A stretch of DNA of 64,000 nucleotides from Candidatus Hydrogenedentota bacterium (lineage in GTDB: Bacteria > Hydrogenedentota > Hydrogenedentia > Hydrogenedentales > SLHB01), in the NCBI GenBank assembly GCA_963668025.2, contig CAXXTH010000019.1, positions 181,734 to 245,733 on the forward strand, written 5' to 3'. How positions within the stretch are numbered: position 1 is the stretch's first letter; every line of letters begins with the position of its first letter. Positions 1 to 17,200 of this stretch are shown piece by piece. Under the pieces are notes generated by a model. The model made no database searches and was not told the DNA's origin. It was given only the letters and a program-made list of their open reading frames with translations. The position numbers and the translations under genes were made by a program.

Positions 1-1
1 C

Positions 2-868
2 CTTTTTTCCTTAACCACATGGGCTCAGTTTTCTACAAACGATCTTGAGAATCCTAAGCCAGGTTCGTTTATTGCGAATCTAGTTGAACAAGAAGCTGGA
101 ATAGCCGCAAATGAGACTATGAGCGATAATGTCCGAAATCTATACTTTAAAGGAGAACTTTTTACTTGGTATTCACAGTTATATTTTAGTAGGAATTATG
201 CTGCTTTCTTCAATAGCATAGAAAGAGTACCACGAATTCAAAAATTGATGCAGATTATCCGTACTGGGTCTTCAGACGAAAAAGCTAAATTGAAAGCATG
301 TGTTATTGGCATGTGTAATTTTTACATAAAAGAAGCTCCTCTATTGCCTTCGTCTCAAAATACGGATCCTGCCTCGGTCGCTTTTAATAATGAACCTTCG
401 GCATTATTTCCAAAGGATGGAATTGCATATGCTTATTTGTTGAGTTATATAGATGAAAAAGGTGATATGCTTCCATTGCTAGTAAAAATGCATGAGCGAC
501 AACAAGAGGCATCGTATGAGTTAGGAAAACTCATGCTTAGTAAGAATAACTCCGATAATGTTGAATCTACACCAAAGGTGTTTACTGCAACTATACATGG
601 CGCAATTATTTCCTATGCATGCGGACATATTATGCGGGCGATTACTATAAATGAAGAAAAAAAAGACTCTCTTACAGAGATACAGAAAAGTGTATTGGAG
701 CGGTTTGTACAGCTTGAAGCAGAAAACCAAGCTGAATGGGAAAAAGATATTGCGGAAAACCTCCAAAATACAGATGAACAGCTAGAGAAAAAAAGACCTG
801 AATGGATGGATATGAATTCTCAGACTAAAATTCTTGCACTTGCAAAAGAGTACGTTTCAGCTATATGA
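2..868 (+). CDS. Hypothetical, probably secreted protein (5'-truncated by the window edge), low GC
   Basis: The frame of ORF 119..868 stays open back to position 2 (LFSLTTWAQFSTNDLENP..., resembling a signal-peptide end); AT-rich compared with the host. Confidence 0.65.
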   Translation, partial: LFSLTTWAQFSTNDLENPKPGSFIANLVEQEAGIAANETMSDNVRNLYFKGELFTWYSQLYFSRNYAAFFNSIERVPRIQKLMQIIRTGSSDEKAKLKACVIGMCNFYIKEAPLLPSSQNTDPASVAFNNEPSALFPKDGIAYAYLLSYIDEKGDMLPLLVKMHERQQEASYELGKLMLSKNNSDNVESTPKVFTATIHGAIISYACGHIMRAITINEEKKDSLTEIQKSVLERFVQLEAENQAEWEKDIAENLQNTDEQLEKKRPEWMDMNSQTKILALAKEYVSAI

Positions 869-899
869 ATAAAATCACAGCATAACTACACAAAGGGAG

Positions 900-1601
900 A
901 TGTGTGTCATGAAAAAAATGAATGTAATTATGTTTTTTTTAGTGTTGTCTGCTTTTTGTGCAACCGCAGATGAACCTAACGGAACAGTAGACGACTTTTT
1001 TTGTACTGGCTTATATGAAGGAGGAGGAATTCAGACTATTTTTTTTAAATTAGCCAGGTATGAGATTCCTGATGCCGATGATGATGAATGCTATAATGGC
1101 GCAGATTGGTGCATATCTACCTCTACAGGAAGAAAAGTTGCACATTGGCATCTCGATACTTCCTATCGCTCTGATTTAACAAGCGAAGAAAAAGCTAATA
1201 TGAATAGACTTTATGAGTATATGAATTCATGGGCAACTTCCCAGAATCGAATAGGTTATCCTTCAATTGCATATAATTGTCATGCTTATGCGTGGGGACG
1301 AAACGATATCTTAATTTTAGGAACACCATATGGTGGAGATGGGATGGAGCGTTTATTTGCTGACGATTGTGAACATATTAATAGTCAGCAATTATGTGAA
1401 ACGGGAGATCTATTTAAGCATACTCCAAATCCAGGTATAGATCATACATCGATAATAGATGCAGGAACATTAAATGGTGTCACAGTAATTGATAAGTTTC
1501 GAGGAAAAATGGGTTTTTATGGTATTTATAGATTGGATAGAGATACAGTTTTTGATGATGCATTAGGTAGTGATAATGGTGGTATTTTTCGAAAGGAATG
1601 A
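900..1601 (+). CDS. Secreted protein with a papain/NlpC-P60-like Cys-His domain (DUF7689-like)
   Basis: Signal peptide MKKMNVIMFFLVLSAFCATA; motifs YNCHAYAWG, IDHTSII and RGKMG; AT-rich. Confidence 0.55.
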   Translation: MCVMKKMNVIMFFLVLSAFCATADEPNGTVDDFFCTGLYEGGGIQTIFFKLARYEIPDADDDECYNGADWCISTSTGRKVAHWHLDTSYRSDLTSEEKANMNRLYEYMNSWATSQNRIGYPSIAYNCHAYAWGRNDILILGTPYGGDGMERLFADDCEHINSQQLCETGDLFKHTPNPGIDHTSIIDAGTLNGVTVIDKFRGKMGFYGIYRLDRDTVFDDALGSDNGGIFRKE

Positions 1602-1704
1602 ACCCTAAAATATTAATGAATATTTCTAGTAGAGGATAATGCTTCGTCTAAACCGTAAACCGCAAATACGCTTGAGAAGGAGCTTTATCCTCTATTTTTA
1701 TTCT

Positions 1705-8291: not shown

Positions 8292-8398
8292 TTTTCTTGG
8301 CGCGGTTTGTTGAGCAGGAGTTTGAGGCTGCACAGCAGCATCTCCCGCCCCTTCGACGAACCATAATGTGTAGGATAGCCGTGAAGGCTATCAATCAT

Positions 8399-10423
8399 CT
8401 AGCCCATTTTCCGCAGTAAGGCCGTCTTTTTTCTGGTTTTGAGCGTCTTTTCGGCTGTAAGTCCTTTGTTGGTCTTGCGTGCTGGTAGGATTTCCGTGTA
8501 GTGGCGAAAACCCCCTTGTTACGCGGGCCAGCGCGTGAGATCATGAGTGCCAGTTGGGAGGCTCTGGCATCGTGTTTCTCAAGCCGAATCGGAAGACCTT
8601 CGATGGCGTGACCTACGAGTATTGGTCGCTCGTGGAGTCGGTGCGCACGGCGAATGGGCCGCGCCAGCGGACGGTGGCCACCATCGGGAAGCTGCCGGGC
8701 CTGGATGAGGAAGCGCGGGTGGGCTGGGAGCACATCGGGGAGATCCTCGATGGCCGGGTGCATCAGCGGGACTTGCTCGAAGTCGAGCCGGAACCGCCGG
8801 CGTGGGCGACGGTGGACACGTCTCGGGTGCGGGTGGAACGGTTACACCGTTTCGGCGAGGTCTACTTGGGGCTGGCGTTGTGGCGGCGGCTTAAGCTGGA
8901 TACGTTTTTCGACGAAGCCATGGCGCCAGGCCGCGAGGAGATCCCGTGGGGCGTAATGGCTTGTATCCTCACGTTGGCGCGGTTCTGCGCGCCGTCGTCG
9001 GAGTTGCACATCGCCGAGTCGTGGTATGGCAAGACGGCCTTGGAGGATATCCTCGACGTGGCGCCGGAGAAGGTGAATGAGGACCGTCTGTACCGGGCTC
9101 TCGACGCGCTGCTGCCCCACAAGGACGCGCTCTTCGGTCACTTCCAGAAGGTCTATGGCGAGCTGTTTGGCGCCACCTTCGACATCCTGCTCTACGACAT
9201 CACGTCGACGTACTTCGAGGGGCAGGCGGGGGACAACCCTCAAGCGAAACGAGGCTACTCCCGGGACAAGCGGCCCGATTGCGTGCAGGTCTGCATTGCG
9301 CTGGTGGCCACGCCGGAGGGACTTCCCCTGGCCTACGAGGTCTTCGACGGCAACCGCAGGGACGTGACCACGGTGGAGGAGATGGTGGAGGCCATGCGCA
9401 CGAAGTACGGCCACGAGCGCCGCACGTGGGTCATGGACCGCGGCATGGTGAGCGAGGACAACCTCGAGATGCTGCGCGAGGCCAAGGCGAGCTATCTCGT
9501 GGGCACGCCCAAAAGCATGCTCAAACAGTTCGAGCGTGACCTCTTGGAACAGGGTTGGGAGCAAGTGGAGCCCGAGGTGGAGGTGAAACTCCGCCCCTCG
9601 CCCGAGGACGAAGACGAGACCTTCGTGCTCTGTCGCTCGCGCGGCCGCATCGAAAAAGAACGGGCCATACGCGAGAAACAGCGCGTGAAGCTCGAGGCTG
9701 AACTCAACCGGCTCAAAGCGCGCATCGACGCCGGCACACGCGCCCTGCGCGACCGCGGCGCCGCTGAACGCCACGTGGGCCGGTGCTTCCAGAAGTACTC
9801 CCGCGCCGCCCGCTTCTTCCAAGTGGCCATCCGCGAACAAGACGACCCCAAACACAAAAGCGGCAAGCGCCTCGCCATCGCCATCACCCAAGACCCCGCC
9901 CATCGCGAATGGGCCGAACTTACCGACGGCTGCTACCTGCTGCGCACCAACCTCCAGAACCACGACCCAAAGCAACTCTGGAAAGCCTACATCGGCCTCA
10001 CGCAGATCGAGGACAGCTTTCGCATCAGCAAGCACGACCTCGGCCTCAGGCCCATCTTCCATCACAGAGAACGCCGGACCCAAGCACACATCCTCGTGTG
10101 CTTCCTTGCCCTCGTGATGTGGCGGACTCTCCAGCAATGGATGGACGGCGCCGGCCTCGGCGCCGCGCCCCGAAAACTCCTCGAAGAGATGGCCGAAGTC
10201 CGTTCCTTGGACGTGGTCTTGCCTACCGGCCAAGGCACAGAGTTACGCCTGCGCACCGTCAGCAAGCCCGAGCAGCGCCTCGCGCTCCTACTCCAGAAAC
10301 TCGACCTTCCCCTGCCCAATAAACCAAAGTCGATCCCAAATGTAGTGGCGAAAACCCGCCGAAATCTCCAATTTTCCTAGAAAACGCCAACCTCCTTTGC
10401 CTCAACTGCGGAAAATGGGCTAG
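8399..10423 (+). mobile_element. IS1634-family insertion sequence, apparently intact
   Basis: Perfect 19-bp IR ctagcccattttccgcagt (8399-8417) / actgcggaaaatgggctag (10405-10423); can equally be read as 15-bp TIRs plus a CTAG target duplication. Confidence 0.92.
8572..10380 (+). CDS. IS1634-family DDE transposase
   Basis: LYDITSTYFEG, GYSRDKRPD, VMDRGM, IEDSFRISK..LGLRPIFH; GTG start at 8572 after GGGAGG. Confidence 0.95.
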   Translation: MFLKPNRKTFDGVTYEYWSLVESVRTANGPRQRTVATIGKLPGLDEEARVGWEHIGEILDGRVHQRDLLEVEPEPPAWATVDTSRVRVERLHRFGEVYLGLALWRRLKLDTFFDEAMAPGREEIPWGVMACILTLARFCAPSSELHIAESWYGKTALEDILDVAPEKVNEDRLYRALDALLPHKDALFGHFQKVYGELFGATFDILLYDITSTYFEGQAGDNPQAKRGYSRDKRPDCVQVCIALVATPEGLPLAYEVFDGNRRDVTTVEEMVEAMRTKYGHERRTWVMDRGMVSEDNLEMLREAKASYLVGTPKSMLKQFERDLLEQGWEQVEPEVEVKLRPSPEDEDETFVLCRSRGRIEKERAIREKQRVKLEAELNRLKARIDAGTRALRDRGAAERHVGRCFQKYSRAARFFQVAIREQDDPKHKSGKRLAIAITQDPAHREWAELTDGCYLLRTNLQNHDPKQLWKAYIGLTQIEDSFRISKHDLGLRPIFHHRERRTQAHILVCFLALVMWRTLQQWMDGAGLGAAPRKLLEEMAEVRSLDVVLPTGQGTELRLRTVSKPEQRLALLLQKLDLPLPNKPKSIPNVVAKTRRNLQFS

Positions 10424-10482
10424 GTGACGAGGTAATGAAGATGTTTAGGGTGAGGTGAAGTAGATCCTGAAGGGGCAAAACT

Positions 10483-11433
10483 ATGTATAGTAGGTTACTT
10501 CATTCATCTGACCTTCCAGAATGTCTTTGGCAACCCGAGCAGGACTGCCTACATATTCCAGAAGTGATTTCGAAAATCTACGAACAAATGCTGGAGGAGA
10601 AGGAATTACTAGAACTTGCTCGTAACGACACTTCAACGGATGGACCTGTTGGTGGTGTAACAGAAGACGCTACAAACAAACACTTCGCAACTAGATTCTC
10701 GGCATCCGTCGCTAGAACGCAATTGACTATTCTTGATCCGAAAGAAGACTTGCGGAATGTCTCAGATTTGTTCATCCAAGCTTTTTCTGGTGGTACTATA
10801 AGCTTATTAGACATCCCATGTGGAGCAGGTGCGGCTTCAGCTTGTTTGTTAGGGACGATTGCAGCACTACGAGAAGCGCATGTTGTCCCGCGCCAGCCAC
10901 TAATAGTCAAGTTGCTCTGCGGCGATCTCTCCTGGTATGCACGAGACTACGCTGAAAACTTGATAGCAGGCATGCAGAATACTCTTAGGTGCCAAGCGAT
11001 ATTCGTTGAGGCACGCTTTACTCCGTGGAATGTGCTCGATCCCTTCAGCACAAGCGGTCTGCTCTATGATTGGATGGAATTCGCACGTGGATGCAGAGAG
11101 TATTTCATCGTAACTGCAAATTTTTCTGGATTCCTCCAGAAAGAGAATAAGCTTAATGAGGCTAAACCTCAGCTGTCAGAGGTTTTTCGATGGGCTGAGA
11201 AACGCCGGTCTACTGTGATGTGGCTTGAACCCAAAACAAACGAAGCCGTAGAAGGACTATGGCCCCGTGTTTTCAAATTGTTTAAAGGTATTCTTCCACC
11301 CCTTTTTAGATCAGACCGAAAAGACGACAAATGCCTTCTGTCTTCAGAATGTCGATACAGGCACCCAATAATTAGTAATTGTACTCCCAGGGTAAATCTG
11401 ACCCTAACACGTCTAGAAGTAAATGAAAAATGA
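10483..11433 (+). CDS. Class I SAM-dependent methyltransferase-like protein (RT-associated)
   Basis: Motif I LLDIPCGAGAAS, acidic beta2 end LLCGDLS, ANFSGF, MWLEP; stop codon overlaps the RT start (ATGA 11430-11433); low GC. Confidence 0.75.
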   Translation: MYSRLLHSSDLPECLWQPEQDCLHIPEVISKIYEQMLEEKELLELARNDTSTDGPVGGVTEDATNKHFATRFSASVARTQLTILDPKEDLRNVSDLFIQAFSGGTISLLDIPCGAGAASACLLGTIAALREAHVVPRQPLIVKLLCGDLSWYARDYAENLIAGMQNTLRCQAIFVEARFTPWNVLDPFSTSGLLYDWMEFARGCREYFIVTANFSGFLQKENKLNEAKPQLSEVFRWAEKRRSTVMWLEPKTNEAVEGLWPRVFKLFKGILPPLFRSDRKDDKCLLSSECRYRHPIISNCTPRVNLTLTRLEVNEK

Positions 11434-13148
11434 AAACTGCACCTGAAACAATAGCTGTTAAAGCAGTCAACCAATATCGTCGAAGAGACATAATCGGTTA
11501 CTTAGGATTGCGACTTTATCTAGACAATAGTTGTGCCCAACGAAACCTCTGGAGTCACAACGTAGCATGCCGTATCACTCTGCACAGCCCATCGCTCTAC
11601 CATTCGTCATCACATTTCAAAGAACAAGATGCTGATACAGGAGACATCAGGCATAGGCGAATATGCGTCCCTACTCCAAACGAGATACTTGCTGAGACTG
11701 CCTTGCTTGTAGAGCTGTCCTCCACATCTTGTCTTAAGAATACTAGTAGCTATAGTTACAAGCTTGCAGATGCGAGAGATCGTGTTGGTATTTTTGCCCC
11801 TTATTTTCTGGGATTTAGAGAACGGCACCGCGCAATAGCTCAAGCTGCGAAATCCCATAATGGCAACGTCGTTCTATATACGGATATCCACCGTTATTAT
11901 CCATCAATACGTGCTGAACTCGCACGGAAAGTATGGTCAGAAGTAGCCAAATCTGTGAACTTGTCTCAACGGTTCAGGGATCTAGGAAACAAACTTCTGG
12001 ACAACCAATCAACGGCTTGTTCAAGAGATGAAAATGGACTTCTAACAGGTCCCATGTTTTCTCATTTCATAGCCAATCGGGTACTTTTCGATGTCGACAA
12101 AAGAATGGAAGAATTGCTTCCAAACGGTTATTTTCGTTATGTGGATGATATTGCATTAGTAGGCCCTAAGAATCAGGTTCTAGACGCGGAGAAGCAACTA
12201 GAAAAACTTTTATCCGATTTGGGCCTATCTATGAACAAGGATAAGCGGCTTCTTATTTCGTCTTCTCATTGGCTTGAAGGAGAACATGATTTTTCAGGCG
12301 ATCCTAATAAGGTGTCCTGGAAGACTTTTATTGGGAAAATGAAACAGTTGCTCATCGCTCGCCCAAAATTGACAAATTCAATTACCAATCTTCTAACAGA
12401 TAATGGTTTCCGTCTAAAACCTTTAGATTACTCCGATGTCGTTAAGGAGCAACAGTATCAAAGTCGCTTGTTACTTCTGCTGAAAAATAATTGGTTTCGA
12501 GAATCTGTTCGAAATACCACTCCAGAGCTTATTTGTAAGGAGGGACTTGAATTACGCGCCCGATATCAAGAGAGTTTATTTGTGAATGCAAATGGAGCGG
12601 ACCAGCTTGAAGGATATAACCGAAAACGAAGAATCTACCAGCTTCGACGATACGCCTCTCGCCTGATTTATTTGGCTGATCCAGGAGAACTACGAAACAT
12701 CGTACAAGCTTTGGAACAGATACCAGAAATGAGGCTTTTCACAGAAATATTCCGCGCTATCGATTCACACGACGCAAGCCGTGTTGTCCAGTACGGCGCA
12801 AATGCTGCCCATGGTCTTGCTCAGGCTCTTCTTTCGTCTAAAATGAGTGTTTCCTGTTCGACACAAAACTGGACAGACGCAGCTCGACAGGCATATTCAA
12901 TCTTGGTTGCACACGGACTGTGTGTTGAAGGTAATAAGCCTGAAAATCCATCTGATATGGAATGTTTCTGCGATTGGGATAAATACTCCCATGATATTAG
13001 GGAAACGCCCGATAGCTATTTCAACGAGATATCTTGTTTACATGGTTTTGGCTCTAGGCGAAGGCATGAAGACTGTCTGCTAAGGGCATTTGATGCAAAC
13101 GAGGATATTATTAATGACATAGAGAGCGTACTAGAGCAGTCATATTAG
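11430..13148 (+). CDS. Reverse transcriptase, UG/Abi (DRT-like) type, with a long C-terminal extension
   Basis: VLYTDIHRYYPSI, GLLTGPMFSHFIAN, YFRYVDDIALV, LGLSMNKDK; no maturase/HNH, no retron NAxxH/VTG; about 290 extra C-terminal residues. Confidence 0.92.
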   Translation: MKTAPETIAVKAVNQYRRRDIIGYLGLRLYLDNSCAQRNLWSHNVACRITLHSPSLYHSSSHFKEQDADTGDIRHRRICVPTPNEILAETALLVELSSTSCLKNTSSYSYKLADARDRVGIFAPYFLGFRERHRAIAQAAKSHNGNVVLYTDIHRYYPSIRAELARKVWSEVAKSVNLSQRFRDLGNKLLDNQSTACSRDENGLLTGPMFSHFIANRVLFDVDKRMEELLPNGYFRYVDDIALVGPKNQVLDAEKQLEKLLSDLGLSMNKDKRLLISSSHWLEGEHDFSGDPNKVSWKTFIGKMKQLLIARPKLTNSITNLLTDNGFRLKPLDYSDVVKEQQYQSRLLLLLKNNWFRESVRNTTPELICKEGLELRARYQESLFVNANGADQLEGYNRKRRIYQLRRYASRLIYLADPGELRNIVQALEQIPEMRLFTEIFRAIDSHDASRVVQYGANAAHGLAQALLSSKMSVSCSTQNWTDAARQAYSILVAHGLCVEGNKPENPSDMECFCDWDKYSHDIRETPDSYFNEISCLHGFGSRRRHEDCLLRAFDANEDIINDIESVLEQSY

Positions 13149-13561
13149 ATATTTTGTACTAGAGATTCTCATACAGCCATATGCCGAATCTTAGAACCAC
13201 TTTCTCCGAGAAAAAACGGCAAACCTTGACGACAACAGCATCGGACACCATAGCGTTTGAGTTTTTCTTCAGCCGCTTAGGGTTTCTTGTAAAAATTGGA
13301 GATTGGATTCGGTTTTGACGAGAAGTGTTAATGGAGTCTCGACTATGCCCCAATCCTTCTCTCTGGCGTTGAATGGAGATGCTTAGGCAGCGTCAGTAAA
13401 TAAGCTTTTCATTAACTATTTTATAAGGCGCTTGATCACGGCGCTTCTCGATGATCATTGCTAACCTTATTTGTGTATGCCGCCTTAGTTCAAAGCCGAC
13501 AGCATTACCCGGAGCATCTGTTCGAGCTTGTCCTGGGGCGAACTATCGGCGGTTTCCATCG

Positions 13562-13924
13562 TCACAACCTTTCCATGGCCTTTGCGGCTGCCTCGGCGGA
13601 GATTTCACCACGTTCCAGTTTATTCAGAATGGCGCGCTTGGCTTCCTCGTTCTTATGGAGCTTCTGATAGGATTCGATGATATGGTCCAAACGGTTTCGG
13701 ATGGCGACGTATCCCAAGCCGGATTCTTCGGCCAGCGCCTTGATGCTGAAACCGGCCAAGAGGTAACGTTCGAGAAATTCCAGGTCTTCACTGGGCATGC
13801 GGGAAAACTGTGTCAGCCGGAACCGCCCCCGGATTTCCATCTCGCATTGGTCGCAATACATCGCCACGGTGCGCATGGAACCGCCGCAATAGGGGCACTC
13901 TAGTTTTTTTCGTGTGGGTTCCAT
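13562..13924 (-). CDS. DUF2089 family protein (Zn ribbon + HTH)
   Basis: CPYCGG...CDQC, IRGRF, SIKALAEESGLGYVAIRNRLD, ILNKLERGEISAEAA. Confidence 0.85.
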   Translation of the reverse strand: MEPTRKKLECPYCGGSMRTVAMYCDQCEMEIRGRFRLTQFSRMPSEDLEFLERYLLAGFSIKALAEESGLGYVAIRNRLDHIIESYQKLHKNEEAKRAILNKLERGEISAEAAAKAMERL

Positions 13925-13930
13925 GAAAAA

Positions 13931-13959
13931 AGTATATACCAAACCGGATATTATGTCAA
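13931..13959 (-). promoter_or_regulatory. Sigma70 promoter of the DUF2089 gene (probably leaderless mRNA)
   Basis: TTGACA (13959-13954), 17 nt, TATACT (13936-13931), 6 nt, ATG (13924). Confidence 0.7.
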
Positions 13960-14208
13960 ATATATTTTTGGTATTTTGATAATAACCAAAATTTATTTAA
14001 AAACCGAGACGGCTTTTTCATGCCACTGAACGAAAAAAACAGGCTTCCATCCCGAAAGAAAATAGGAAAGCGCCGGCACTCCACGAAAACACAATACTCT
14101 TGCTCTTCAGATGGCCAGCCTGTTGCTCCTTTTTAAAATGCAATGCAACGGGAACTGTCCATCGTGGTATTATAGAGGCACGGCGCAGGTTAGCCAGGCA
14201 CTAGGGCA

Positions 14209-17200
14209 ATGCAACCGAGTGGGGTACGCACCATGTTTTCCAGGATTCTCTCCCGCAATCGTCTTTGGTCCGTTCTATCATTGGCGGCCATTTGCTTATG
14301 CGCCGCTCTTGCTTTGCTGGAGGCGAAACGGCCTTCTTACGCCCAGGAGGCTTCCCCCGCTCCGCCTGTGGAAGCGGCTGCTCCAGCTCCAGCCCCAACG
14401 CCTCCTCAAGGCGGCCCGTACTTGAATGTAGTAGGCGCGGTGCCGTTACCGGGGGATTGGCTTACGAACAAGATCATCGTGTTTTTCGACCAACCCATCC
14501 AGGCGCCCGGCGGGCCTTCATCCGTGCTGCTCGGTCCGGGCCTGCCCGCGGAATGTCTCATCGGAAGCAATTACGTGCGGGTTCAGTCGTCCCGCATACC
14601 GTCGGATCGTGTTGTGCAACTTGATCTCAGCGGCGTGCAATCAGCGGATGGCAAGCCCATCAATCCCGAACAGAAGATACAAACGTTTGCCGCCTTTGTG
14701 TTTGCCCCGCAACAGGTATTTTTTGTCCAGCGTCAAAATGGCCAGATCGAGATGGGTATGGCTTTTCCTACGGAGGTTAGAGCAGATGAGGTGCAAGCCC
14801 ATCTCCGCGCTATGGACGCCAAGGAGCAGCCGGTTCCATTCACCGTGTCACCCGGCAAAGACGCAAAAATCGTACAAATCTCCGTGCCTGAAACCACGGC
14901 ATGGCCGCTGCAATTGATTGTCAGCGCAGGCCTCAAGGACGCCTCGGGGTTCATAGCGCTCGCGGATGAACACACTTTTTCGTATATGCCTTCCACGGAT
15001 TTGGCCGTGTCCAAAGTCGAATGGGGAACCTTCAGCCCAGAACGCCAAGATCTCCACATCTATTTTTCGTCCCCGGTCTTGCCGGACGCCTTGAAAGAGC
15101 ATTTGTCTATCACCGATGCCAATAGTGGCGAAGAAGTGGGATATGAACTCGATAACACGGAAGCATCGAGCGATCTGGTGATTGGCGTACATGTATCGGG
15201 CCAGGCGCAAGCGCAGATCACGGTAAATATCTCGCAAGGGCTCGAAAGCACGGACGGGATGGCCTTGGGTGCGGATTATACCGCGAATCTTGCAGGCCCC
15301 GAGAACCGATTAGCGATCCAGAACTATTGGTGGAATTATCCCGAGCGTGAAGGGCTGGCGTTGTATCTCCAGCTCAGCCAGCGCGTGGAGGCAAACCAGC
15401 TTAGGCAATATATAGCGGTCGAACCGGCCATCGAAAACCTGCGCGTCGAGTCCGAAGGGTACAATTCCTACATGGTGTATGGCGATTGGAAGCCGCAACA
15501 GGCCTACACCATCACCGTCAAGGCCGGGCTGCCGTATTGGGGCGGCCAAACCCTCGATTCCGACCAAAAGGCGGCTATCAAAACGGAACGCCTGCCCGCT
15601 TATATGGGTTTCGGGTATAAAGACCAATATTACTTCCCCCGGAAAGCGGGCATGCCGCTAGACATGGAAAGCAGGGGCGTTTCCAAAGTGAAGCTTACCC
15701 TCTACCGGCTGTTCCCCTCGAATCTGCCTGCTGCCGTGGAAGATATTAATAGTGGTAATGGAAGCTGGCGGTTCACTACCCAGTTTTGCGAGCAATTAGC
15801 GCAGACCGAGATGCCGGTGGCGAATGATCCCAGTTCGCTCGTAAAGACTCCCATTGATATCAGCGCGATGAATCTCAATAACACACGCGGGGTGTTCTGC
15901 CTCGAAGCAGAGGGTAAAGTCAGCCAGTCCGGTGAAGAAGATGAAGGCTCGCGTTCCGGCACGAAGATCATCGTATGGACGGATATCGGCGTGCTGGCCC
16001 ACTGGCAGAACCAGGAGTTGGCGCTTTTTGCCCATGACCTGTATTCGCTGGCGCCCATCGCCCGCGCGAAGGTGACAGTGTATTCCGCAAAGAACCAGGT
16101 ATTAGCCGAATGGACGACCGACGAGCAGGGCATGGCCTATCTTTCCGGCTTCAATCCCTCGCTGGGTGCGCCCGCCTTGGCCGTGGTCGAACACGAACAG
16201 GATTTCACTTTCCTTCCGCTACAACACAACGCCGATGACCCCGTGGCCTACGACGAAGGGCAGCCGTTCTATGATGCAAAAGGCTACGACGCTTTCATCT
16301 ATGCCGACCGAGAATTGTATCGTCCCGGCGAAACAGCCCACGTGCATTGGGTCGTACGCCAACGCTACGGCGACGCCGTGGGGGCGCTCCCCTTGCAGAT
16401 GCGCATTCTCAAGCCCAATGGCCGCAAACTCCTGGAACAGGCCGTCATGCTCTCGGACACGGGCACGGGCGGTTTCGATTTCGTCTCGCAGCGCGCCTAC
16501 CCGACAGGCAAATATACAGCGCAGCTTCTCTTGCCCGGGAAAGACAATCCCATCGGCAGCTATACGTTCAGCCTAGAAGATTTCGTGCCCAACCGCATCA
16601 AGGTGAAGCTCAACGCCTCCGAAGCGCCGCTCCGAGCCGGGCAGCCCGAGCAGGTGAGCCTCAACGCCCAGCACCTCTTCGGCGCGCCTGCGGCGGACCG
16701 CAAGTGCGAACTCAAGATCGCCTTGCAGCGCAAAGGCTTTAAGTCAAAACAGTGGGAAGCGTTCCGCTTTGACAACGATGCTGACTTTAAACCGGACATC
16801 GTGGACCTCGGCCAGCAGACCACTGATGCCGAAGGCAACGCAACCTTCGATTTCACCTACCAAGCCCCGGCGGAGGCCACCAGCCCGCTGATGGCGTCCT
16901 TAGTGGGGCGCGTGTTCGAGTTGGGCGGGCGCTCCGTAGGCGACGCCGCCCAGCGGGTGCTGTTCCCGTCGGACATCGCCCTCGGTATAAACGCAGCCGC
17001 AGCCGCACAAGGGCAAGGCGTGGATGTGCAGGTCGTGGCCATCCAGCCCGACGAATCGCCAGCGGCGCTTGACAAGGTGACGGTGCGCCTCGAAAAACAG
17101 TCGTGGAACTATTATGTCCGGCGCTATTACGGCCACCACGAGTCGAATTGGTCGGAAAGCTTCGAGACCGTAGACACGAAAGAAGCGCCGCTCACCAATG

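What the first reader, a model, noticed from the sequence alone, without database searches (positions are those of the whole stretch)
10483..13148. Methyltransferase + UG/Abi-type reverse transcriptase operon: candidate uncharacterised DRT-like defence system
Seen: a visibly low-GC two-gene cassette in a GC-rich host, coupled by an ATGA overlap (11430-11433). The RT has intact catalytic motifs (TDIHRYYPSI, LTGPMFS..IAN, YVDD), an unusual N-terminus (AVNQYRRRD..YLGLR.YL) and about 290 extra C-terminal residues that look helical. It lacks group II intron X/HNH domains and retron NAxxH/VTG motifs, and no DGR or cas genes are nearby. The partner has a class I SAM motif (LDIPCGAG, GDLS) but motif IV reads ANFSGF, followed by MWLEP, instead of DPPY/NPPY or the 5mC PC, so it is not a canonical DNA MTase. 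Established: UG/Abi RTs with helical C-termini (AbiK, AbiP2, several DRTs) are anti-phage, and some are protein-primed and template-independent. From memory, and unverified, a methylase-associated UG group (possibly UG25) was listed bioinformatically; I know of no mechanism. Inference: the MTase modifies the RT, its cDNA product, an RNA or nucleotides, to arm or restrain the defence.
Basis: partly seen in the sequence, partly recalled or inferred. Interest (0 to 1): 0.9.

Follow-up and report, generated by a model that had tools for sequence, protein, structure and literature searches.

The report
UG36 reverse transcriptase with methyltransferase-like partner
This two-gene cassette is an intact, horizontally acquired copy of a catalogued but never tested candidate anti-phage module, a reverse transcriptase that always travels with a methyltransferase-like partner, so it is an ordinary member of a known but mechanistically unsolved family.

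Summary
Two intact ORFs, 10483-11433 and 11430-13148, overlap by ATGA and have 0.42-0.45 GC against flanks of about 0.55-0.67.

The RT is a full-length member of PADLOC family RT_UG36 (E 9.7e-161). Mestre et al. 2022 (PMC9226505, passages read) already list UG36 as associated with a separate methylase gene and predict defence. My two searches found no later paper that mentions UG36 in this sense. This scan has reached the same verdict on at least 7 other genomes.

What I tested here:
- **Partner synteny.** The partner lies directly upstream in 74 of 76 genome loci and 49 of 49 metagenome loci that have upstream DNA. None of 23 loci with other RT families has it.
- **Partner fold.** It has no Pfam hit but folds as a class I SAM-methyltransferase. 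Its nearest solved folds are Dot1/GRAS, not DNA methylases.
- **Complex.** The model supports an RT-partner complex (score 0.91, best control 0.00).
- **RT fold.** It is nearest DRT6, DRT4 and AbiK.
- **ncRNA.** I found no conserved flanking ncRNA.
- **This copy.** A 2,017-bp IS sits 63 nt before the start codon.

Verdict: a new member of a known kind. The mechanism is still open.

The parts
10483..11433 (+). Gene for the 316-aa methyltransferase-fold partner of the UG36 RT. Residues 1-100 form a helical N-terminal region and residues 101-316 a seven-stranded Rossmann core. Motifs: motif I LLDIPCGAGA (D110, G114, G116), acidic D148 after strand 2, W182-N183, N213-F214, W247-x-E249-P250.
   Evidence: ORF. 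No Pfam or NCBIfam hit. AF2 model pLDDT 89.4, pTM 0.90. Foldseek best hits are Dot1L, GRAS, DOT1A, GNMT and BCDIN3D. 424 relatives among 1.84 billion representatives. Residue conservation over 91 pairs.
11430..13148 (+). Gene for the 572-aa UG36 reverse transcriptase. Residues 1-55 form an N-terminal helical extension, about 57-290 the RT fingers and palm (D152, Y237-V238-D239-D240, K272), and 291-572 a mainly helical C-terminal domain.
   Evidence: PADLOC RT_UG36 E 9.7e-161, residues 5-571 on profile 2-555/557. Pfam RVT_1 scores 29.4 bits against a cut-off of 29.6. AF2 pLDDT 88.9. Foldseek best hits are DRT6, DRT4, AbiK, UG15 and Abi-P2. Best PDB sequence hit is DRT6, E 1.6e-13, RT core only.
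11430..11433 (+). ATGA overlap of the partner's stop codon and the RT's start codon (translational coupling).
   Evidence: The same 4-nt overlap occurs in 46 of 74 related genome loci, and 69 of 74 junctions lie within -14 to +5 nt.
10424..10482 (+). The 59 nt of native 5' leader left between the IS, with its target duplication, and the start codon.
   Evidence: Sequence; IS ends.
8403..10419 (+). A 2,017-bp insertion sequence (DDE transposase ORF 8554..10380, same direction as the cassette) inserted in the leader of the operon.
   Evidence: Pfam DDE_Tnp_1 E 1.9e-14. Four copies in the genome at 99-100% identity. Terminal inverted repeats and ends read.
8399..8402 (.). Left copy of the 4-bp target-site duplication CTAG (the right copy is 10420-10423).
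   Evidence: all four IS copies are flanked by a 4-bp direct repeat (CTAG three times, TTAG once).
13149..13561 (+). A 413-nt non-coding tail after the RT. I found no evidence that it belongs to the system.
   Evidence: RNA fold z-score -0.28, with 37 of 100 shuffles folding as well. No Rfam match. No similarity to the tails of 67 other loci.

Best explanation
The cassette is a UG36-type two-gene module of the UG/Abi family of prokaryotic reverse transcriptases, acquired horizontally.

The upstream protein has a SAM-binding methyltransferase fold and is an obligate, co-evolving subunit. In the model it docks on the RT's N-terminal helices (residues 29-53) and C-terminal domain (523-541) through the face of its Rossmann fold opposite the SAM pocket. 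That leaves its catalytic face free.

By analogy with its nearest solved relatives (DRT6, DRT4, AbiK, Abi-P2), the RT most likely makes DNA without a dedicated flanking ncRNA template. It is probably protein-primed from a conserved tyrosine (Y110 in a fingers loop or Y24), and the module probably acts as an abortive-infection type anti-phage system.

The partner either methylates something the complex makes or meets, or couples RT activity to SAM.

Shown here: family membership, obligate synteny, co-variation, folds, and a modelled interface. Inferred: defence function, untemplated and protein-primed synthesis, and any role of methylation.

In this genome the native leader is split by an IS 63 nt before the start codon, so expression may depend on read-through from the transposase gene.
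For: **Membership.** RT_UG36 E 9.7e-161 over the full length. The next best families are far weaker: UG35 5.2e-20, UG34 4.2e-17, Drt6 3.1e-16.

**Synteny.**
- Genome loci: 74 of 80 have the partner directly upstream on the same strand. Of the 6 without, 4 have no upstream DNA and 2 have a broken RT.
- Metagenome loci: 49 of 56 UG36 loci have it, and the 7 without all begin within 84 nt of the contig end.
- Control: 0 of 23 loci with other RT families have it.
- Junctions: 69 of 74 lie within -14 to +5 nt.

**Co-variation.** Pairwise identities of the partner and the RT over 91 intact pairs correlate at r 0.92; the maximum of 500 permutations is 0.14.

**Conservation over the 91 pairs.**
- Partner: G114 91/91, G116 90/91, an acidic residue at 148 in 91/91, E249-P250 91/91, W182 89/91, N213 83/91.
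- RT: D152, YVDD, K272 and Y24 91/91; Y110 90/91.

**Complex.** Score 0.91, best control 0.00. This mark was reached by 58 of 80 solved complexes and by 2 of 110 mismatched pairs. The runs agree in at least 89% of contacts and the partner's pLDDT is at least 84. My own alignments were used, so these counts hold only roughly. No solved relative of the partner was found by sequence, so a pass from memory of a like complex is unlikely.

**Fusion relative.** A metagenome ORF that is RT_UG35 (E 2e-158) aligns with the partner profile over its N-terminal residues 109-190 (hhalign probability 89%, E 2.3e-6).

**RT fold.** DRT6 (E 4.1e-8, 559 columns), DRT4, AbiK, UG15 and Abi-P2 rank above DRT2 and DRT9. 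DRT4 and DRT6 are template-independent and protein-primed (PMC12783706, passages).

**Against a flanking ncRNA.** No Rfam hit. No family-wide flank similarity. In 11 of 74 loci a homologue-supported co-directional gene ends 80 nt or less before the partner's start.

**Defence context.** 24 of 74 loci have type I, type III-like or Eco57I-like restriction-modification genes within 6 kb.

**Horizontal origin.** Low GC, and 0 of 40 relatives (24 of the same family, 16 of the same order) have a UG36 RT at E <= 1e-30.
Against: - No experiment on UG36 exists in the searched library, so defence is only predicted.
- In this window the neighbours are housekeeping genes: PhoPQ-related, alpha-2-macroglobulin with a penicillin-binding protein (transglycosylase and transpeptidase domains), and an MCP. 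This is not a defence island.
- Structural similarity to class 1 RTs is modest (TM 0.30-0.44, rmsd 14-17 A), and sequence similarity is confined to the RT core. Mestre et al. state there is no evidence of an alpha-Rep-like C-terminal domain in UG36. The class 1 analogy is therefore weak.
- Asn213 after strand 4 is replaced, mostly by Ala, in 8 of 91 partners, so catalysis may not be universal.
- Template RNAs inside coding sequence, or poorly conserved ones, would escape my tests.
- The IS may have silenced this copy.
- The complex score is a model's own confidence, not a measurement.
Confidence: 0.7

Rival explanations
1. An ncRNA-templated system like DRT2, DRT9, DRT3a or DRT10: a structured RNA from the leader or the 413-nt tail is the template and scaffold, and the methyltransferase-like protein modifies that RNA or the cDNA.
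For: Several UG/Abi systems work this way (review PMC13213688, passages). Three closely related loci (L005, L006, L008) share a leader of about 200 nt with a promoter-like box followed by an 8-10-bp hairpin. The window has 413 non-coding nt after the RT. First-stage notes e1-6372512 and e1-6372506 proposed this.
Against: - No Rfam match.
- The tail folds no better than shuffles (z -0.28).
- The leader with the IS removed in silico has z -1.56, and 25 of 300 shuffles fold as well.
- Only 9 upstream-flank and 10 downstream-flank matches passed E 1e-3, among 69 and 68 flanks, and all are between close relatives.
- In 11 of 74 loci the preceding gene ends 80 nt or less before the partner's start, and in L001 ORFs abut both ends.
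- The nearest folds are untemplated class 1 enzymes.
Confidence: 0.12
2. A functional module that is not a defence system. For example, it could be a maintenance or addiction element, or a nucleic-acid modification pathway that merely rides with restriction-modification operons.
For: Mestre et al. found some UG groups (UG4, UG27) without defence enrichment, and UG36 was called defensive only from individual loci. This copy has no defence neighbours. No relative was found in 2.9 million viral contigs, so no phage link of that kind was seen.
Against: 24 of 74 loci lie within 6 kb of restriction-modification genes, and 11 of 74 are appended co-directionally to such operons. The distribution is patchy across many phyla, with 0 of 40 relatives carrying it. 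The nearest characterised relatives are all anti-phage.
Confidence: 0.1
3. This particular copy is transcriptionally disabled by the IS insertion and is on its way to decay. The ORFs are intact only because the insertion is recent.
For: The IS lies 63 nt before the ATG, between a -10-like box at 8362-8367 and the gene. The four IS copies are 99-100% identical, which implies recent activity. No run on record as RNA holds the stretch.
Against: Both ORFs are full length with all conserved residues. The transposase gene points towards the cassette, and no terminator-like site was predicted between 10380 and 10483, so read-through is possible. This reading concerns expression only and is compatible with the best explanation.
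Confidence: 0.25

Closest known systems
UG36 group of UG/Abi reverse transcriptases with associated methylase gene (Mestre et al. 2022, PMC9226505; PADLOC model RT_UG36)
   Same: Full-length match to the family model. A separate methylase-fold gene lies directly upstream. The RT has a long C-terminal region of no known family. Predicted, but not tested, to be defensive.
   Different: Nothing at the family level. Specific to this copy: an IS in the leader, no defence neighbours, and 46% identity to the best relative among the fetched loci and 57% to the best protein found.
UG35 and UG25 (methylase domain fused to the N-terminus of the RT; Mestre et al. 2022)
   Same: UG35 is the second-best RT model (E 5.2e-20). 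The partner weakly matches the N-terminal part of the UG35 model (E 1.8e-5) and a real UG35 protein (hhalign probability 89%). This is consistent with a shared origin and with physical association.
   Different: Here there are two separate proteins. No UvrD-like helicase (UG35) or DUF1848 (UG25) partner was seen as a recurrent neighbour. Similarity covers only about 80 residues around motif I.
Class 1 UG/Abi enzymes DRT6, DRT4 (UG15), AbiK and Abi-P2: protein-primed, template-independent DNA polymerases
   Same: Best structural matches over 540-600 alignment columns, and DRT6 is the best PDB sequence hit. Helical C-terminal domain after the palm. Invariant tyrosines that could prime synthesis.
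   Different: Those are single-gene systems without a methyltransferase. TM-scores are only 0.30-0.44. The C-terminal and N-terminal regions match no other PADLOC family. Oligomeric state and priming are untested.
Dot1-type, GRAS-type and small-molecule class I methyltransferases (fold neighbours of the partner)
   Same: Seven-stranded Rossmann fold with an N-terminal helical region. Foldseek E 1e-5 to 1e-3, probability about 1.0.
   Different: 9-15% identity and TM 0.29-0.40. No sequence-level relation. A fold match gives no substrate. DNA adenine methylase ranks only 45th, with probability 0.47.

Membership tests
UG36 (UG/Abi RT group with methylase partner) | RT matches the group's profile over its whole length, including the group-specific N- and C-terminal regions | tested here: met
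   RT_UG36 E 9.7e-161, residues 5-571 on profile 2-555/557. The C-terminal 282 aa alone give E 7.3e-57 and the N-terminal 120 aa give E 2.5e-31, each matching this model only.
UG36 (UG/Abi RT group with methylase partner) | A separate methylase-domain gene is associated with the RT | tested here: met
   The upstream ORF overlaps the RT by 4 nt and has a class I methyltransferase fold. The same partner is present in 74 of 76 genome loci and 49 of 49 metagenome loci with upstream DNA. I could not check which of Mestre's clusters (169 or 2186) it belongs to, because supplements are closed.
UG36 (UG/Abi RT group with methylase partner) | Intact polymerase active site | tested here: met
   D152, Y237-V238-D239-D240 and K272 are present here and in 91 of 91 intact relatives.
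UG36 (UG/Abi RT group with methylase partner) | Anti-phage function | not testable with these tools
   Only predicted in the literature. Context support: 24 of 74 loci lie near restriction-modification genes. This copy has none nearby.
Class 1 UG/Abi RTs (AbiK, Abi-P2, DRT4, DRT6) | C-terminal alpha-Rep (HEAT-like helical repeat) domain in place of a thumb | tested here: inconclusive
   Mainly helical C-terminal domain. The best Foldseek hits are class 1 enzymes over nearly the full length, but with TM 0.30-0.44. No sequence match of the C-terminal domain to any class 1 model. Mestre et al. report no evidence for it.
Class 1 UG/Abi RTs (AbiK, Abi-P2, DRT4, DRT6) | Protein-primed, template-independent DNA synthesis | not testable with these tools
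   Candidate priming tyrosines are Y24 (91/91) and Y110 (90/91). No conserved flanking RNA was found.
Retron RT | Match to retron RT models above cut-off, and an adjacent msr/msd RNA | tested here: not met
   retron_St85_RT scores 53.3 bits against a cut-off of 235. No Rfam RNA in 9800-14300.
Group II intron RT/maturase | Match to the maturase model above cut-off, and intron RNA domains around the ORF | tested here: not met
   TIGR04416 scores 37.4 bits against a cut-off of 300. No Rfam intron match.
Diversity-generating retroelement | Template and variable repeat pair near the RT | tested here: not met
   Only one 25-nt, 72% direct repeat in 10420-16000.
DNA methyltransferase of a restriction-modification system | Match to DNA methylase families, and a (D/N/S)PP(Y/F/W) or PC catalytic motif | tested here: not met
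   No Pfam or NCBIfam hit for the protein, and no DNA-methylase family among the weak hits to its 33 aligned relatives. The residues after strand 4 read ANFSGF. Dam ranks 45th in the fold search, with probability 0.47.

The most novel reading that the evidence does not exclude
The methyltransferase-fold subunit is not an accessory but the switch of the system. It is anchored on the RT by its back face and either methylates the RT's protein-primed DNA product, which would be the first methylation-coupled DRT, or reads cellular SAM.

In the SAM-reading version, phage SAM-degrading or anti-restriction functions that disarm the SAM-dependent type I, III or IIG restriction systems would unleash DNA synthesis and abortive infection. 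UG36 is often appended to such restriction systems. This would be a guard logic similar to what I recall of PrrC with EcoprrI (recalled, not checked).
Probability: 0.12. Interest if true: 0.75.

Novelty: new member of a known kind. Interest (0 to 1): 0.32.

Why it matters
UG36 is one of the UG/Abi groups for which no experiment is in print in the searched library, while its cousins (DRT2, DRT3, DRT4, DRT7, DRT9) have each revealed an unexpected way of writing DNA.

A reverse transcriptase that never occurs without a SAM-binding partner suggests a link between methylation or SAM and DNA synthesis in immunity. That would be new chemistry for this family.

This copy adds no new kind. The family-wide results here are near-obligate synteny, a confidently modelled heterocomplex, a partner fold that does not look like a DNA methylase, and no flanking ncRNA. 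Together they sharpen which experiments to do.

Tried and rejected
**Partner family by sequence.** Pfam and NCBIfam gave no hit for the protein itself. Among its 33 relatives the best methyltransferase hits were single members at E 0.048 and 0.082. A PDB profile search gave nothing below E 0.5. The Atlas gave unnamed clusters and one lead, Methyltransf_34 on 24% of the members of one cluster, which I did not pursue.

**RT C-terminal domain in the Atlas.** Scores were 0.82-0.85, which is uninformative.

**Fused long forms of the partner.** The word-based search of proteins of 673-2000 aa found none, which the tool itself calls weak evidence. A UG35 fusion was nevertheless found by chance among the metagenome loci.

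**Phage carriage.** No relative of the partner was found in viral contigs with the two patterns used.

**Closest relatives' DNA.** The 50-57% identical relatives P0002-P0006 could not be examined for flank conservation. The best DNA in hand is 46% identical (L001).

**Island borders from relatives.** The PhoPQ-related neighbour is a multi-copy family. None of 9 fetched relatives' loci carried the window's UbiA, DUF2089 or macroglobulin neighbours within 1.5 kb, so the borders were not mapped.

**ncRNA.** Rfam, the fold of the tail, the fold of the IS-free leader and flank blastn all gave nothing.

**Expression.** No RNA holder was listed.

**Laid contigs.** They show only that the IS-cassette junction stands in two samples of the same organism label. 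Uncovered bins and loose ends at 11735 and 13413 in run X3 were not interpreted.

**Papers.**
- PMC9226505, PMC13213688 and PMC12783706: passages only.
- 10.64898/2026.10.21.760695: abstract and outline only.
- Supplements (Mestre Tables S2 and S3, which hold partner clusters, member counts and defence scores) were closed and may bear on cluster assignment.
- The claim that nothing on UG36 is in print after 2022 rests alone.
Full report
**Observation.**
- One search shows two co-directional ORFs: 10483..11433 (316 aa) and 11430..13148 (572 aa). They overlap by the four bases ATGA.
- GC is 0.42-0.45 over the cassette, against about 0.55-0.67 around it.

**Identity of the RT.**
- Against PADLOC the RT matches RT_UG36 over its whole length (E 9.7e-161, residues 5-571 on profile 2-555 of 557). 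The next families are forty orders of magnitude or more weaker: UG35 5.2e-20, UG34 4.2e-17, Drt6 3.1e-16.
- The N-terminal 120 and C-terminal 282 residues alone match only this model.
- NCBIfam scores for retron, group II intron and Drt2-4 models are all far below their cut-offs.
- Rfam finds no RNA family in 9800-14300, and there is no DGR-like repeat pair.

**What is in print.**
- Mestre et al. 2022 (PMC9226505, passages read) define UG36 as an unclassified UG/Abi group.
- They find it reminiscent of UG25 and UG35, where the methylase is fused to the RT, and they predict defence from inspection of individual loci. It was not among the systems they tested.
- Searching the library for UG36 returned only that paper in the RT sense.
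- A 2026 overview of DRT mechanisms does not mention methylation (PMC13213688, passages).
- This scan has already reached the same verdict in at least 7 other genomes.

**The partner is obligate.**
- A genome-collection scan found 193 relatives of the RT, and the best 80 were kept.
- A profile of the partner (alignment A2) hits an ORF directly upstream on the same strand in 74 of the 80. Of the other six, four have the RT at the first bases of the contig and two have a broken RT.
- In 69 of 74 the junction lies within -14 to +5 nt, and in 46 it is the same 4-nt overlap.
- Among 80 metagenome loci, 56 are UG36-type. Of these, 49 have the partner, and the 7 without all start within 84 nt of the contig end.
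- 23 loci with other RT families have none. One locus is a fused UG35 protein.
- Over 91 intact pairs the pairwise identities of the two proteins correlate at r 0.92, against a permutation maximum of 0.14. This is expected for a unit that is inherited together.
- The partner family is small and isolated: 424 representatives at E <= 0.001 among 1.84 billion. The 150 best listed are mostly about 280-340 aa.

**What the partner is.**
- It matches no Pfam or NCBIfam family and no PDB sequence.
- A confident model (pLDDT 89.4, pTM 0.90) has seven strands alternating with helices, like a class I methyltransferase, behind a helical N-terminal region.
- Foldseek's best PDB matches are Dot1L, GRAS domains, trypanosome DOT1A, glycine N-methyltransferase and BCDIN3D (E 1e-5 to 1e-3, TM 0.29-0.40). 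Dam ranks 45th.
- SAM-site residues are kept in 91 pairs: G114 91/91, G116 90/91, an acidic residue at 148 in 91/91, W182 89/91. The W-x-E-P after strand 5 is nearly universal.
- The Asn of ANFSGF is replaced, mostly by Ala, in 8 distant members.
- I conclude it binds SAM and is probably an enzyme. It is not a DNA methylase of the restriction-modification kind, and its substrate is unknown.
- I recall that Dot1 enzymes have an Asn-Phe-containing motif after the fourth strand. I could not check this.

**Do the two proteins bind?**
- The complex model gives a score of 0.91 (three runs: 0.90, 0.91, 0.91) against a best control of 0.00.
- That mark was reached by 58 of 80 solved complexes and 2 of 110 mismatched pairs. 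The runs agree in at least 89% of contacts, and the partner's pLDDT is at least 84. My own alignments were used, so the counts hold only roughly.
- The interface uses RT residues 29-53, 83-84 and 523-541. On the partner it uses residues 3-7, 10, 95-105, 130-141, 166-174, 205-206 and 242.
- These partner residues include the invariant R130 and the nearly invariant P136, P139 and L140.
- By the secondary structure they lie at the N-terminal edges of the strands, that is, the face opposite the SAM pocket. This last point is my inference.
- A real UG35 fusion protein aligns with the partner profile across motif I and this loop (probability 89%). That fits a common origin and physical association.

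**What the RT resembles.**
- The RT model (pLDDT 88.9) is nearest to hexameric DRT6, DRT4, AbiK, UG15 and Abi-P2 over 540-600 columns. These rank ahead of DRT2, DRT9, group II intron and retron RTs, but TM-scores are only 0.30-0.44.
- By sequence the best PDB hit is also DRT6, in the RT core only.
- DRT4 and DRT6 make DNA without a template, primed from a tyrosine. AbiK and Abi-P2 prime from tyrosines in a fingers loop (PMC12783706, passages).
- UG36 has Y24 in 91/91 pairs and Y110, in a loop of the fingers, in 90/91.
- This is why I favour protein-primed, untemplated synthesis, but it is analogy only.

**Search for an RNA component.**
- The 413-nt tail folds no better than shuffles (z -0.28).
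- The leader with the IS removed in silico has z -1.56, and 25 of 300 shuffles fold as well.
- Flanks of 68-69 loci share similarity only between close relatives.
- Three related loci share a promoter-like box and a hairpin.
- In 11 of 74 loci a homologue-supported gene ends 80 nt or less before the partner's start. Most of these upstream genes fall in the restriction-modification or helicase-like neighbour clusters.
- In L001 ORFs abut both ends.
- A dedicated flanking ncRNA is therefore unlikely as a family feature. An internal or poorly conserved one is not excluded.

**Context.**
- 24 of 74 genome loci have type I, type III-like or Eco57I-like restriction-modification genes within 6 kb. 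No third gene is conserved.
- In this window the neighbours are housekeeping genes.
- The cassette is single-copy in the genome. No UG36 RT was found in 40 relatives (24 of the same family, 16 of the same order) at E <= 1e-30.
- With the low GC this points to horizontal acquisition.

**The IS.**
- A 2,017-bp IS (8403-10419) lies 63 nt before the start codon. It is present in four copies at 99-100% identity, and each copy is flanked by a 4-bp duplication (CTAG here).
- Its transposase gene points towards the cassette, and no terminator-like site was predicted between them.
- Contigs from two samples carry the same junction.
- Whether this copy is expressed is unknown.

**Verdict.** This is an intact, ordinary member of the catalogued but untested UG36 methylase-RT module. 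Its claim of an undescribed system is not right, and its mechanistic guess remains open.

Noticed in passing
window 8399-10423: A 2,017-bp IS with a DDE transposase. It has terminal inverted repeats and a 4-bp target duplication, and the genome holds four copies at 99-100% identity. Here it is inserted in the leader of the cassette.
   Followed up: yes
G000 contigs outside the window (e.g. C10, C17, C20): About 17 near-identical copies of a 544-aa ORF with an RT core (E 6.5e-7 to the UG36 profile). This looks like a multi-copy retroelement such as a group II intron. A further RT lies at C12:26234-26851 (E 2.3e-13). I did not examine either.
   Followed up: no
L168:35-3061: A 1,009-aa metagenome ORF that is a full-length RT_UG35 (E 2e-158). 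Its N-terminal domain aligns with the UG36 partner profile, making it a natural methylase-RT fusion relative.
   Followed up: partly
protein P0023 (663 aa): One protein matches the partner profile over residues 2-245 and the RT over about 74% of its length. It may be a deletion that fuses the two genes, or an assembly artefact.
   Followed up: no
L005:4830-5029, L008:4830-5029, L006:182-381: Three UG36 loci from different genera share a leader of about 200 nt. It has a promoter-like TTGA..-17-..TAAT box followed by an 8-10-bp palindromic hairpin before the partner gene. A fourth relative (L012) does not share it.
   Followed up: partly
window 11735 and 13413 (run X3): Contigs from a second sample of the same organism label break off into unrelated GC-rich sequence at these two places inside and after the RT gene. 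This may be an assembly tangle or a rearranged variant.
   Followed up: no
window 1-1700: A very low-GC stretch (0.36) holds two ORFs (119..868 and 900..1601) with no Pfam match. It looks like a separate foreign islet.
   Followed up: no
window 13562-13942 (-): A small DUF2089 zinc-ribbon/HTH gene converges on the RT and has a strong promoter-like site at 13959-13931. It is not a recurrent neighbour in the 74 related loci.
   Followed up: partly
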